Of a stretch of DNA of 14,391 nucleotides, positions 4,220 through 11,947 are shown piece by piece. Positions within the stretch are counted from its first letter, which is position 1. Each line of letters starts with the position of its first letter. The stretch is from a virus. Taxonomy: Duplodnaviria; Heunggongvirae; Uroviricota; Caudoviricetes. The notes beneath the pieces are model-generated. The model was not told the DNA's origin. It did not search any database and saw only the letters and a list, made by a program, of their open reading frames with translations. The translations under genes and the position numbers were made by a program. The stretch lies in the IMG/VR virus record IMGVR_UViG_2675903650_000028; one strand, written 5' to 3'.

Positions 4220-4423
4220 TTACGGTGCTGTTTTAAGTCCTGCCGGGATTTCGTTATTATCCATGAGAATAACTTTATCGACCGGATAGCAGTTACCGGG
4301 AATTTTTTGTTCTGCTGCGGCAGCCATGCATTCTTTCATTGAACCGTAAATGTCAATAACCATGTCAACAGGCTCGCCAGTATTAAGAAAAACAGTCAGA
4401 GTGAGGGCAATAGTAGTATTCAT
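4220..4423 (-). CDS. ydfD: YdfD-like small protein (Qin lysis protein homolog)
   Basis: 67 codons from an internal ATG (4421-4423) preceded by AAGGA; the track ORF extends to 4477. Its ATG overlaps the dicB stop (ATGA). Hydrophobic N-terminus (TIALTLTVFL). Position immediately after dicB matches the dicB-ydfD order of Qin; the protein sequence itself is not confidently recalled. Confidence 0.55.
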   Translation of the reverse strand: MNTTIALTLTVFLNTGEPVDMVIDIYGSMKECMAAAAEQKIPGNCYPVDKVILMDNNEIPAGLKTAP

Positions 4424-4608
4424 TGCCAGTATCCTTTTTGCATCGGGCGTAAACGTGCCAGCATTGAAAGAATGCATATTTTATTTAATAGCTCCCGTTC
4501 GTGTTTTCTCTTATTAATGGCATCTTCAGTAAATACAGGGTTACTGATTCTGACACCAATTTCAAAACAACCTTCAGACGTATTGACGTTTGGTAATAAC
4601 GTTTCCAT
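4420..4608 (-). CDS. dicB: Cell division inhibitor DicB
   Basis: 62-aa product from internal ATG 4606-4608 with GAGGA SD. Sequence METLLPNVNTSEGCFEIGV...NKICI.SMLARLR matches my recollection of 62-aa DicB. The track ORF 4420..4704 is a 5'-extended version. Confidence 0.8.
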   Translation of the reverse strand: METLLPNVNTSEGCFEIGVRISNPVFTEDAINKRKHERELLNKICILSMLARLRPMQKGYWQ

Positions 4609-4787
4609 TATCGCGTCCTCAACAATGAATTTTGTGATGCGGTGCCTGGTGCCTCCAGGTGACGTTAACCAGTTAATAATTAACGCCGGATACAGAGAAC
4701 CCACCCATAAGAACCAATACGGAAGTCAACTGGCCTTTTTAACTGTTCCGCGTGCGCTGAGCCGCATTCACCGCATCACAAAATTCA

Positions 4788-4850
4788 CTTTAAAAGGGGC
4801 GGGTATCATAGGAAAAACAAAACGGATACCCGCTAAAAGGTAATCAACAT
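4788..4850 (-). ncRNA. dicF: DicF-like small RNA (approximate ends)
   Basis: On the minus strand: ...UUUUAGCGGGUAUC-(17-nt loop)-GAUACCCGCCCCUUUU, a hairpin plus short U-tract, followed by AAAGUGAAUUUUGUGAUG. Position (between ydfC and dicB) and architecture match my recollection of DicF and its 3' flank. The loop sequence differs from what I recall for K-12. Confidence 0.45.
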
Positions 4851-5174
4851 GGGTTGTTGCAGCGGGGTTGTCACTCAGGCGTATGGTCAACCTGACAACC
4901 CGGTGGACATTTGCGAGGAACGGAGAACCCCCGCCATACTTACCGCCGCGCCATTTCGCGGAGTGCCACAACCGGAAGCGCACGGTCGACGAAAATTTAA
5001 CGACAGGCTATCTATGAACCAGCAACCTCGCCGTGCGCTTTCGCGTTATGCTCTGACTTTTCAGAGAAATATCCTTTCAGTAAACTGTCAGTGCCGGATG
5101 CTCACCCGTGTCCGGCGCACACACTCCACCTCACCCGTGGAGAACTCCTTAATTACCAACCCTCAGGAGGGTGA

Positions 5175-5303
5175 ATGTTAAAATCAACGCTTATTGCTAA
5201 ATGCCTTTATCAAAATCGCATGGTAAGCAGCATTTCAATAGGCGAATCTGTAGTTAAAAGTATTTTCGAAGAGTACTTTCGAAGAGTACTTTTCTGGGCG
5301 TGA
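5175..5303 (+). CDS. Doubtful 42-codon ORF antisense to the dicB operon
   Basis: ATG 5175 is preceded by AGGAGG (5165-5170), which can pair within a CCCUCAGGAGGG hairpin. The ORF contains a tandem 13-nt repeat (not a multiple of 3), which argues against real coding. Confidence 0.2.
   Translation: MLKSTLIAKCLYQNRMVSSISIGESVVKSIFEEYFRRVLFWA
5265..5290. repeat. Perfect tandem 13-mer TTCGAAGAGTACT x2, near-palindromic (AGTACT / TTCGAA cores)
   Basis: Read directly from sequence; preceded by a partial third copy (AGTATT). Confidence 0.7.
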
Positions 5304-5398: not shown

Positions 5399-5806
5399 TT
5401 AAAGATTTGTGGGATCTTTGATATCCACAGAGCCTAAAGTATGTGCATATGGATGTGCTATTGTGCGCCCCTGTAAATTTGCATCGTTTTCTAAATCTTT
5501 TGATTTCAACAGAACATCAGCAAGACTCTGAATCATGCAGAGATAATCAAAAACAGTTGCCGTTTCTGTTCTGATTGCTGAAATAACATGACCATTCAGG
5601 CAAACAGAAATTACCCGTTCATCAATATCGTTTTTCTGTTTTTGATTATCAGAACCATATAGCCCTGAAAAAGCATTGCGCACATTACGAACCATATTAT
5701 CGATGGTTTCTTTTTTGGTGTATGCCGGGTCAATTTTCACCAGACTATCACCGAGTGTCGTTGCAGCAATTATCTGGATTTCTTTTGGTAAATCTTTAAA
5801 TTCCAT
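5399..5806 (-). CDS. Hypothetical protein (135 aa), low-GC insertion inside the dicB operon
   Basis: ORF with GAGG SD 7 nt upstream of ATG 5806, 22 nt downstream of the ydfC stop. Visibly AT-rich relative to flanking genes. No motif recognised. Confidence 0.6.
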   Translation of the reverse strand: MEFKDLPKEIQIIAATTLGDSLVKIDPAYTKKETIDNMVRNVRNAFSGLYGSDNQKQKNDIDERVISVCLNGHVISAIRTETATVFDYLCMIQSLADVLLKSKDLENDANLQGRTIAHPYAHTLGSVDIKDPTNL

Positions 5807-11615: not shown

Positions 11616-11684
11616 GACTGTGGGTGCTTGAGGCTATCTGTCTCAGGCATGAACACCAAAAGGCAGATAGAGAAAAGCCCCAGT

Positions 11685-11743
11685 TAACATTACGCGTCCT
11701 GCAAGACGCTTAACATTAATCTGAGGCTCAATCCATGCTGAAC
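11685..11743 (-). ncRNA. Putative Sok-like antisense RNA (approximate)
   Basis: Minus-strand promoter-like TTGCCT-17 nt-TAACCT (plus coordinates 11778-11750). The transcript would be complementary to the SD and start of the upstream in-frame ORF (ATG 11735) and would contain hairpin GCGUC-UUGCAG-GACGC (11693-11708). About 60 nt. Confidence 0.3.
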
Positions 11744-11791
11744 ACATGTAGGTTAGCCTCTTACGTGCCGAAAGGCAAGGAGAAGCAGGCT

Positions 11792-11947
11792 ATGAAGCAG
11801 CAAAAGGCGATGTTAATCGCCCTTATCGTCATCTGTTTAACCGTCATAGTGACGGCACTGGTAACGAGGAAAGACCTCTGCGAGGTACGAATTCGAACCG
11901 GCCAGACGGAGGTCGCTGTCTTCACAGCTTACGAACCTGAGGAGTAA
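11792..11947 (+). CDS. hokD: Hok-family type I toxin (HokD/RelF-like)
   Basis: 51-aa product MKQQKAMLIALIVICLTVIVTALVTRKDLCEVRIRTGQTEVAVFTAYEPEE: Hok signature with one transmembrane helix and CEV.IRTGQTEVAVF. An in-frame upstream start at 11735 gives the 70-aa track ORF (mok-like; not resolved). Confidence 0.85.
   Translation: MKQQKAMLIALIVICLTVIVTALVTRKDLCEVRIRTGQTEVAVFTAYEPEE

What the first reader, a model, noticed from the sequence alone, without database searches (positions are those of the whole stretch)
4788..4850. DicF-like sRNA with a different loop sequence from the one I recall for K-12
Position, 3' hairpin plus U-tract and downstream flank (AAAGUGAAUUUUGUGAUG) match my recollection of DicF. 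Here the stem is longer (GCGGGUAUC / GAUACCCGC) and the intervening sequence is CGUUUUGUUUUUCCUAU. If target pairing uses this region, this variant may regulate a shifted target set (ftsZ and others).
Basis: partly seen in the sequence, partly recalled or inferred. Interest (0 to 1): 0.5.

Follow-up and report, generated by a model that had tools for sequence, protein, structure and literature searches.

The report
Non-DicF hairpin allele at dicF site
The hairpin sits exactly where the cell-division-inhibiting small RNA DicF lies in E. coli K-12, but it is a diverged alternative allele that lacks both of DicF's target-pairing regions, so it is most likely a transcription-stop and processing hairpin in front of the dicB gene, not a working DicF.

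Summary
The hairpin is real (minus strand, 4833-4799; 9-bp stem, 17-nt loop, then CCCUUUU). It occupies the dicF position of a Qin-like prophage operon, upstream of an intact dicB. Flanks are 88-91% identical to K-12, but the 64-nt cassette (4855-4792) is only 59% identical.

- **Not Rfam DicF:** the model scores 76.7 bits on K-12 and gives no hit here, even at E<=10.
- **Both seeds missing:** the 5' seed (UUUCUGGUGAC) is deleted. The loop and 3' half that pair with ftsZ and pykA are replaced.
- **Pairing lost:** K-12 DicF scores ftsZ -22.9, pykA -22.5, xylR -15.9 kcal/mol. This allele scores only -6 to -10, as generic anti-Shine-Dalgarno matches.
- **Multi-allelic site:** 194 cassette instances show two 5' arms and at least three hairpin families sharing a GGCGG/CCGCC base and U-tract.
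- **Private variant:** the window carries family "C2" with two private substitutions, one breaking the basal pair and one in the loop.
- **Loop not conserved:** within family C the arm and stem are invariant and the loop varies, unlike true DicF.

Best reading: an intra-operon terminator and 3'-end-forming hairpin. A new sRNA with other targets is not excluded.

The parts
4792..4855 (-). The 64-nt variable cassette at the dicF position, lying between conserved anchors CCCCGCTGCAAC (4867-4856) and AAAGTGAATTTTGTG (4791-4777). It is the 'C2' haplotype with two private substitutions.
   Evidence: Identity to the K-12 cassette is 0.59, against 0.91 and 0.88 for the 200-nt flanks.
4834..4855 (-). 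Alternative 5' arm AACCCAUGUUGAUUACCUUUUA. It replaces the DicF 5' seed arm and lacks UUCUGGUGAC. A4834 is private; it is G in all other family-C copies recovered.
   Evidence: The arm occurs in 71 IMG/VR contigs and shows no common variant within family C.
4825..4833 (-). 5' half of the stem, GCGGGUAUC.
4808..4824 (-). 17-nt U-rich loop CGUUUUGUUUUUCCUAU. U4810 is private; it is C in the common C2 allele and falls in the UUCCC motif shared by C1, C2 and C3.
4799..4807 (-). 3' half of the stem, GAUACCCGC.
4792..4798 (-). CCC spacer plus a 4-U tract: the presumed terminator tail and Hfq-binding 3' end.
   Evidence: Read from the sequence. Other alleles have C plus 5 U. The simple terminator scan does not call it.
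4769..4789 (-). 5' strand of a 21-bp long-range helix. By homology to K-12 it is the probable RNase III site that makes the longer DicF 3' end.
   Evidence: -77.9 kcal/mol, z = -5.8. PMC5069750 reports a 72-nt species produced by RNase III.
4625..4785 (-). Structured dicF-dicB spacer, STnc100-like. The 3' strand of the long helix (about 4645-4625) lies just upstream of the dicB SD.
   Evidence: One search gives 33.5 bits (gathering score 47). The same sub-threshold hit occurs in K-12 and at six of the seven other allele loci scanned (C1, C2, C3, B, D, E, F). Fold.
4420..4608 (-). dicB, intact at 62 aa plus stop.
   Evidence: Pfam DicB 126 bits. 87% identical to K-12 DicB.
4856..5165 (-). Conserved non-coding leader between ORF135 and the cassette, about 95% identical to the K-12 ydfC-dicF spacer. 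In K-12 this is the source of the 190-nt DicF precursor.
   Evidence: bioRxiv 10.1101/2023.04.14.536235.

Best explanation
The element is the allelic counterpart of dicF in the early-left (dicBp-type) operon of a Qin-like lambdoid prophage. It is not a DicF RNA.

The operon order on the minus strand is: DicA-like repressor, YdfC, ORF135, about 310 nt of conserved leader, this hairpin, an STnc100-like structured spacer, dicB, a ydfD-like gene, exonuclease, xis, int.

The hairpin keeps what all alleles at this site share: a GC-rich stem base (GGCGG/CCGCC) followed by a U-tract. It most likely works as a leaky Rho-independent terminator and 3'-end-forming, RNA-stabilising hairpin. That would attenuate read-through into the toxic dicB gene and mark the end of the upstream transcript.

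By analogy with K-12, RNase E cleavage in the AU-rich arm (GA/UUACC) and termination, or RNase III cleavage in the downstream 21-bp helix, would release an RNA of about 50-70 nt. That RNA lacks the DicF 5' seed and the ftsZ/pykA-pairing loop and 3' stem. It is therefore not expected to inhibit ftsZ translation the way DicF does. Division inhibition by this prophage would rest on DicB.

Shown here: the hairpin, its homology and position, loss of the seeds, loss of predicted pairing, allele polymorphism, and stem conservation with a variable loop.

Inferred, not shown: termination, processing, and absence of trans-acting function.
For: - **Position and homology:**. The hairpin aligns with the A and B hairpins through GGC(G)GG-YATC-MGTTT and TGATRY-CCGCCC.
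- **No DicF model hit:**, with a working positive control at 76.7 bits. The model grades across alleles: D 43.5, E 34.7, B 34.1 bits, and C and F none.
- **Structure maintained across 11 distinct alleles:** 96.9% of cells are paired, against 29-65% when the partners are slid. One U-A to C-G compensatory pair is present.
- **Conservation pattern within family C (n = 46):** arm and stem show no common variant, and all common variation lies in the loop. True DicF (n = 111) is 3-4 times less diverse than its flanks across its whole length, pi 0.013 against 0.041 and 0.054.
- **Pairing lost:** my accessibility-aware script recovers the published DicF interactions (ftsZ -22.9, pykA -22.5, xylR -15.9 kcal/mol). 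The window allele gives only -7.1, -10.1 and -6.1, and ftsZ ranks 16th of 46 TIRs.
- **No strong partner among the prophage's own TIRs:**
- **dicB is intact downstream:**
- **K-12 biogenesis is known:** DicF's 3' end is made by Rho-independent termination at the homologous hairpin, and its 5' end by RNase E (PMC9438474; bioRxiv 10.1101/2023.04.14.536235).
- **Non-coding:** cassette lengths of 48 to 76 nt differ by non-multiples of three.
Against: - By a simple consensus this is a poor terminator. The loop is 17 nt, there are only 4 U, and they are separated from the stem by CCC. The scan does not call it.
- Termination and processing were not measured.
- The invariant U-rich arm directly upstream of the hairpin, together with a 3' U-tail, is also what an Hfq-dependent sRNA looks like.
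- C1, C2 and C3 loops share a G-Y-U-U-(U)-CCC core. This could be a short seed.
- The common C2 allele pairs slightly better with the ftsZ SD (-9.7 kcal/mol, rank 6 of 46).
- The target background was only 46 TIRs, not a whole genome.
Confidence: 0.55

Rival explanations
1. This is a functional Hfq-dependent sRNA with a different seed. The same processing site releases an RNA of about 50 nt. Its U-rich, CC-containing loop (or the UUACCUUUU arm) would pair with a target set different from DicF's, possibly still including SD regions such as that of ftsZ.
For: - The architecture resembles DicF: an AU/U-rich arm, a GC hairpin and a U-tail.
- The arm is invariant in 46 copies.
- The allele is maintained in about 290 complete E. 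coli genomes and 17 identical copies among the loci recovered here (16 IMG/VR contigs plus strain 602354).
- C1, C2 and C3 loops share a UUCCC core.
- C2 pairs with the ftsZ SD at -9.7 kcal/mol, rank 6 of 46.
- The neighbouring allele family B has an invariant loop, which suggests that alternative sRNAs can exist at this site.
Against: - The loop is the most variable part of the family, including indels, which is opposite to the pattern in true DicF.
- All predicted pairings are short anti-SD matches with no specificity.
- The window copy carries a private substitution in the only shared loop motif and another that weakens the stem.
- There are only 4 U at the 3' end.
- No described sRNA matches: Rfam gives nothing at E<=10, and the Pas sRNAs lie elsewhere in prophages.
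Confidence: 0.3
2. This is a decaying remnant. The C-type cassette, and especially the window's doubly mutated copy, would be a degenerating dicF or terminator with no remaining function in a cryptic prophage.
For: - The window has two private substitutions in 64 nt, while 200 nt on each side are identical to the closest allele.
- One substitution removes the basal G-C pair, changing the fold from -17.2 to -14.1 kcal/mol.
- Other singletons break stem pairs, and two loci carry a 48-nt deletion allele.
Against: - Family C stems and arm are otherwise invariant across 46 copies with diverged flanks (upstream pi 0.125).
- The hairpin is kept across all families, with a compensatory change.
- The surrounding operon (leader, spacer, dicB, exonuclease, xis, int) is intact.
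Confidence: 0.12
3. The region is protein-coding, as part of the 71-aa minus-strand ORF 4768-4983 or the plus-strand ORFs 4472-4843 and 4849-5181.
For: These ORFs exist mechanically.
Against: - Allele lengths differ by non-multiples of three (48, 55, 62-67, 72-76 nt).
- No CDS is annotated here in K-12 or in the closest genome.
- The conservation pattern is that of a hairpin.
Confidence: 0.02

Closest known systems
DicF sRNA (Rfam RF00039; E. coli K-12 Qin prophage, b1574)
   Same: - Same locus. It lies between the conserved ydfC-proximal leader and the structured spacer upstream of dicB, with flanks 88-95% identical.
- Residual homology in the stem base (GGCGG(G)UAUC.GUUUU ... CCGCCC) and the U-tract.
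- Presumably the same biogenesis: intra-operonic, with termination or RNase III at the 3' end and RNase E at the 5' end.
   Different: - No covariance-model hit.
- The 5' seed UUUCUGGUGAC is absent.
- The loop ACUCCGUGA and the 3' stem CUGCUCUGCC that pair with ftsZ and pykA are replaced.
- It has 9 contiguous bp and a 17-nt loop, instead of 7+4 bp and an 11-nt loop.
- It has 4 U rather than 5 U.
- Predicted pairing with ftsZ, pykA and xylR is lost.
Intra-operon Rho-independent terminators of lambdoid early-left operons, and 3'-end-derived or intra-operonic sRNAs generally (for example SroC; PMC9438474)
   Same: A GC-rich hairpin plus U-tract inside a polycistronic early operon, upstream of a host-toxic gene (dicB here, analogous in role to lambda kil).
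   Different: The loop is unusually large and the U-tract is short and displaced. No antitermination system or termination efficiency is known for this operon.
Other alleles at the same site found here: B (GGCGGCAUCAG-UUUCAUUGCUGG-CUGAUGUCCGCC), D, E, F, and C1 and C3
   Same: Same flanks, same stem base and U-tract. B, C and E share the alternative 5' arm.
   Different: - The upper stem and loop differ.
- B, D and E still score 34-43 bits with the DicF model, while C does not.
- B's loop is invariant, while C's is variable.
STnc100 (RF02076) and PasD, prophage structured RNAs
   Same: They are adjacent.
   Different: It is a separate element, sub-threshold here (33.5 bits against a gathering score of 47). 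PasA-D of EPEC map to late or structural prophage regions, not to this locus (bioRxiv 10.64898/2026.05.13.724894).

Membership tests
DicF (Rfam RF00039) | Covariance-model score at or above the gathering score (48 bits) | tested here: not met
   No hit at gathering threshold on the whole window or at E<=10 on 4600-5100. K-12 control scores 76.7 bits. The same allele family (C1, C2, C3) at other loci also gives no hit.
DicF (Rfam RF00039) | 5' single-stranded seed (UUUCUGGUGACGUUU) that pairs with xylR | tested here: not met
   The seed is deleted or replaced in the alignment. xylR pairing is -6.1 kcal/mol against -15.9 for K-12 DicF.
DicF (Rfam RF00039) | 3' region (loop ACUCCGU plus 3' stem) complementary to the ftsZ and pykA ribosome-binding regions | tested here: not met
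   ftsZ hybrid is -7.1 against -22.9 kcal/mol, rank 16 of 46 against 4 of 46. pykA is -10.1 against -22.5.
DicF (Rfam RF00039) | Genomic position: between the ydfC leader and dicB in a lambdoid prophage early operon | tested here: met
DicF (Rfam RF00039) | Hfq binding, RNase E and RNase III processing, and filamentation on overexpression | not testable with these tools
   These need Northern blots, co-IP and overexpression experiments.
Rho-independent (intrinsic) terminator | GC-rich stem maintained by selection | tested here: met
   9 bp with 6 G-C pairs. z = -3.7. 96.9% of cells paired across 11 alleles, with one compensatory pair.
Rho-independent (intrinsic) terminator | Short loop and a U-tract of at least 5 U immediately after the stem | tested here: not met
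   The loop is 17 nt and the tail is CCC followed by UUUU. The consensus scan does not call it. K-12 DicF's experimentally shown terminator is also atypical (11-nt loop, C plus 5 U).
Rho-independent (intrinsic) terminator | Measured termination | not testable with these tools
   This needs Term-seq or in vitro transcription.
Pas sRNAs of EPEC (PasA, B, C, D) | Location and sequence as described | tested here: not met
   The papers place PasA, C and D by Q, RusA and holin genes, and PasB among structural genes. The hairpin sequence is not in the held supplement.

The most novel reading that the evidence does not exclude
The dicF site is a 'seed-swap' cassette. Qin-like prophages would use one conserved processing and termination scaffold (leader, then GGCGG...CCGCC hairpin base with U-tail, then an RNase III helix) to express alternative Hfq-dependent sRNAs (families A = DicF, B, C and others). 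These would be shuffled by recombination at the stem base, each with its own host targets. The window's C-type RNA would then be an undescribed prophage sRNA whose U-rich, CCC-containing loop acts as an anti-SD seed.
Probability: 0.25. Interest if true: 0.6.

Novelty: new variant of a known kind. Interest (0 to 1): 0.4.

Why it matters
DicF is a textbook prophage sRNA, and its presence is usually inferred from the dicB locus.

This result shows that a dicB-linked 'dicF position' does not guarantee a DicF. At least three hairpin families and two 5' arms segregate at the site.

The C family is the best match in about 290 of 5,426 complete E. coli genomes. It can sit in a second prophage beside a canonical dicF, as in strain 602354. 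It has lost both seeds and escapes the Rfam model.

For annotation, such loci should not be labelled dicF.

For biology, this is a natural allelic series for separating the terminator and processing role of the hairpin from the antisense role of DicF. It also offers candidates for new prophage sRNAs, chiefly family B with its invariant loop and less clearly family C.

Tried and rejected
- **Short megablast query:** a 65-nt query found nothing, probably because of the low-complexity filter. I replaced it with a 161-nt query.
- **Whole-molecule RNAduplex against ftsZ:** this gave unrealistically long hybrids with no discrimination. I replaced it with an accessibility-corrected local scan, which I validated on the published DicF targets.
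- **RefSeq annotation as evidence:** even K-12-type loci show 'none' under the match in RefSeq genomes, so the absence of a dicF annotation is uninformative.
- **Pas sRNAs and STnc100 as identities for the hairpin:** rejected on location.
- **Prophage-internal targets:** no hybrid stronger than -13.8 kcal/mol.
- **Coding reading:** rejected on indel lengths.
- **Plus-strand reading:** there is no U-tract after the hairpin on the plus strand.
- **Papers not held:** Faubladier & Bouche 1994 (PMC205167) and Melson & Kendall 2019 (PMC6628830) could not be read. Earlier descriptions of divergent dicF-like sequences therefore cannot be excluded.
- **Allele proportions:** Allele proportions from viral contigs are therefore not estimates.

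Full report
**What is there**

The feature is on the minus strand. It reads:

5'-AACCCAUGUUGAUUACCUUUUA | GCGGGUAUC | CGUUUUGUUUUUCCUAU | GAUACCCGC | CCC UUUU | AAAGUGAAUUUUGUGAUG-3'

The parts are the arm (4855-4834), the 5' stem (4833-4825), the loop (4824-4808), the 3' stem (4807-4799) and the tail (4798-4792).

The 91-nt context folds with this hairpin at -18.8 kcal/mol. The z-score is -3.7, and 0 of 200 shuffles fold as well.

**Context**

On the minus strand the window encodes a Qin-like early-left operon:

| Element | Coordinates | Evidence |
|---|---|---|
| DicA-like HTH repressor | 6936-6529 | |
| YdfC-size ORF | 6047-5829 | no Pfam hit; closest genome annotates ydfC at the equivalent position |
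| 135-aa ORF, no Pfam hit | 5806-5399 | |
| Non-coding leader, about 310 nt | 5165-4856 | |
| The hairpin | 4833-4799 | |
| Structured spacer, about 160 nt | 4785-4625 | |
| Intact dicB | 4608-4420 | Pfam DicB 126 bits; 87% identical to K-12 |
| DUF1482 / YdfD-like | 4477-4220 | |
| 826-aa exonuclease | 4139-1659 | |
| Excisionase | 1589-1338 | |
| Integrase | 1318-23 | |

A P22-Cro-like gene and a YdaT gene diverge on the plus strand.

Alignment with the K-12 ydfC-dicF-dicB interval gives 91% mean identity over 793 columns. The homology collapses exactly over the dicF cassette. Identity is 0.91 in the upstream 200 nt, 0.59 in the cassette and 0.88 in the downstream 200 nt.

**Is it DicF?**

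No.
- The Rfam DicF model finds nothing in the window at gathering threshold.
- It finds nothing at E<=10 on 4600-5100.
- The same tool scores K-12 dicF at 76.7 bits.

Published genetics show that the DicF 5' end pairs with xylR and its 3' region pairs with ftsZ and pykA (PMC5069750). In the window:
- The 5' seed (UUCUGGUGAC) is absent.
- The loop and 3' stem are replaced.

I wrote an accessibility-corrected interaction scan. It recovers the published K-12 interactions, while the window allele reaches only weak U/C-rich anti-SD matches:

| Target | K-12 DicF, hybrid kcal/mol | Window allele, hybrid kcal/mol |
|---|---|---|
| ftsZ | -22.9 (DicF 32-53 with ftsZ -29..-7) | -7.1 (UUUUUCC:GGAGAGA) |
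| pykA | -22.5 | -10.1 |
| xylR | -15.9 (10 contiguous bp from the 5' seed) | -6.1 |

Among 46 real E. coli TIRs, ftsZ ranks 16th for the window allele and 4th for DicF.

**The site is multi-allelic**

I anchored on the conserved flanks and recovered 194 cassette instances from IMG/VR, GTDB genomes, K-12 and the closest E. coli genome.

Two 5' arms occur:
- The DicF arm.
- An alternative arm, AACCCATGTTGATTACCTTTTG, found in 71 viral contigs.

Several hairpin families occur:
- **A:** DicF.
- **B:** GGCGGCAUCAG...CUGAUGUCCGCC.
- **C:** GGCGGGUAUC-loop-GAUACCCGCC, with loop haplotypes C1 to C4.
- **Others:** D (DicF arm plus a B-like hairpin), E, F, and a deletion allele.

Arm and hairpin combinations are mosaic (F5/A 116, ALT/C 46, ALT/B 26, F5/B 3, F5/other 3).

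The DicF model grades across them. D scores 43.5, E 34.7 and B 34.1 bits, all below the 48-bit gathering score. C and F give no hit.

MAFFT aligns the C hairpin to A and B through the stem base and U-tract, so it is a diverged homologue and not an insertion.

In the C register, 96.9% of cells pair across 11 alleles, against 29-65% for slid partners. There is one U-A to C-G compensatory pair.

The flank-anchored pattern scan of GTDB species representatives matched only Escherichia and Shigella, plus three MAGs that are probably contaminated.

**The window's copy**

It is the C2 haplotype with two private changes:
- A4834 is G elsewhere. The change removes the tenth base pair and shifts the fold from -17.2 to -14.1 kcal/mol.
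- U4810 is C elsewhere. It falls in the UUCCC motif shared by the C1, C2 and C3 loops.

All 17 other C2 copies are identical to each other. All best full-length hits in 5,426 complete E. coli genomes are 98.8% identical over the 161-nt query, the two differences expected for C2, so none has the window's exact sequence. The 200 nt on each side are identical to C2.

**Frequencies**

These counts use the best place per record only. K-12-type DicF at >=95% identity is the best match in about 4,190 records. C2-type at >=95% is the best match in about 290. Strain 602354 carries both a 100% canonical dicF and the C2 allele in different prophages.

**Constraint**

| Family | n | Cassette pi | Flank pi (up / down) | Where the variation lies |
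|---|---|---|---|---|
| A (true DicF) | 111 | 0.013 | 0.041 / 0.054 | Low across the whole RNA |
| C | 46 | 0.076 | 0.125 / 0.028 | No common variant in arm or stems; all common variation in the loop, including indels |
| B | 24 | 0.040 | 0.12 / 0.13 | Loop invariant |

The C loop therefore does not behave like a conserved seed.

**Mechanism**

In K-12 the homologous hairpin is a Rho-independent terminator that makes the 53-nt DicF 3' end. RNase III makes a longer 3' end, and RNase E makes the 5' end (PMC9438474; bioRxiv 10.1101/2023.04.14.536235).

This helix closes the STnc100-like spacer just before the dicB SD (-77.9 kcal/mol, z = -5.8). By homology it is the likely RNase III site.

I therefore read the window hairpin as a leaky terminator and 3'-end-forming element that gates dicB expression, without DicF's antisense function (confidence 0.55).

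Caveats:
- It is a poor match to a simple terminator consensus, with a 17-nt loop and CCC followed by only 4 U.
- A decaying remnant is a minor alternative (0.12).

**Literature**

I found no paper describing alternative alleles at the dicF site. The EPEC Pas sRNAs and their STnc100 and PasD relatives lie elsewhere in prophages. Two relevant papers, Faubladier & Bouche 1994 and Melson & Kendall 2019, are not held.

**Verdict**

The locus is right, but the RNA is not DicF. It is a new variant of a known kind, of moderate interest.

Noticed in passing
window 11622-11797 (+), with ORF 11735-11947 (+): A full-length sok antisense RNA (Rfam RF01794, 118.9 bits, E = 4e-27) overlaps a hok-type ORF. 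This is a hok/sok type I toxin-antitoxin module in the prophage.
   Followed up: no
window 4625-4789 (-): The dicF-dicB spacer is a strongly structured domain closed by a 21-bp helix (z = -5.8). It matches Rfam STnc100 below threshold (33.5 bits against a gathering score of 47). The same sub-threshold match occurs in K-12 and at six of the seven other allele loci scanned. Its apical part (about 4700-4725) carries a 14-nt insertion and substitutions relative to K-12.
   Followed up: partly
loci L049, L109, L110, L113, L141, L145 and others (allele family B): Family B (GGCGGCAUCAG-UUUCAUUGCUGG-CUGAUGUCCGCC, with the alternative 5' arm) has an invariant loop. Its cassette is three times less diverse than its flanks (pi 0.040 against 0.12 and 0.13). 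It scores only 34 bits with the DicF model. It is a better candidate than family C for an undescribed alternative sRNA.
   Followed up: partly
L001 2777-2796 with 2912-2933 (K-12); window about 4944-4925: In the K-12 190-nt precursor fold, the ftsZ-pairing 3' half of DicF pairs with a conserved upstream segment, GCGGCGGUAAGUAUGGCGGGG (z = -1.95). That upstream segment is conserved in the window, although its partner has been replaced. It could be a cis 'self-target' or an RNase III duplex. The reason it is conserved without its partner is unexplained.
   Followed up: no
window 5399-5806 (-): A 135-aa ORF with no Pfam hit sits between ydfC and the leader. It is absent from K-12 Qin and is annotated as a hypothetical protein in strain 602354.
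   Followed up: no
window 4792-4855 compared with L002: About 3 differences separate the window from its closest genome over 801 nt (99.6% identity). Two of them fall inside the 64-nt cassette, and the 200-nt flanks are identical. A rough post hoc probability is about 0.02.
   Followed up: partly
L153, L164 (IMG/VR): A 48-nt deletion allele lacks the 5' half of the B-type hairpin, so the terminator is destroyed.
   Followed up: no
PP818812 (Actinobacillus phage vB_Apl-pPE4), MT713136 (Aeromonas phage AP1); L191-L193 (Veillonella, Collinsella and 'Proteobacteria' MAGs): E. coli-type dicF-region sequence at 94-95% identity appears in phage records and MAGs assigned to unrelated hosts. This probably reflects contamination or mis-binning.
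   Followed up: no
OV696610.1 (Escherichia phage Tritos), about 29.6 kb: At least one sequenced, apparently complete phage carries and annotates a K-12-type DicF. Several other phage records carry K-type cassettes at about 80% identity to this window. A 2016 paper reported that phage databases held no DicF or DicB (PMC5069750).
   Followed up: no
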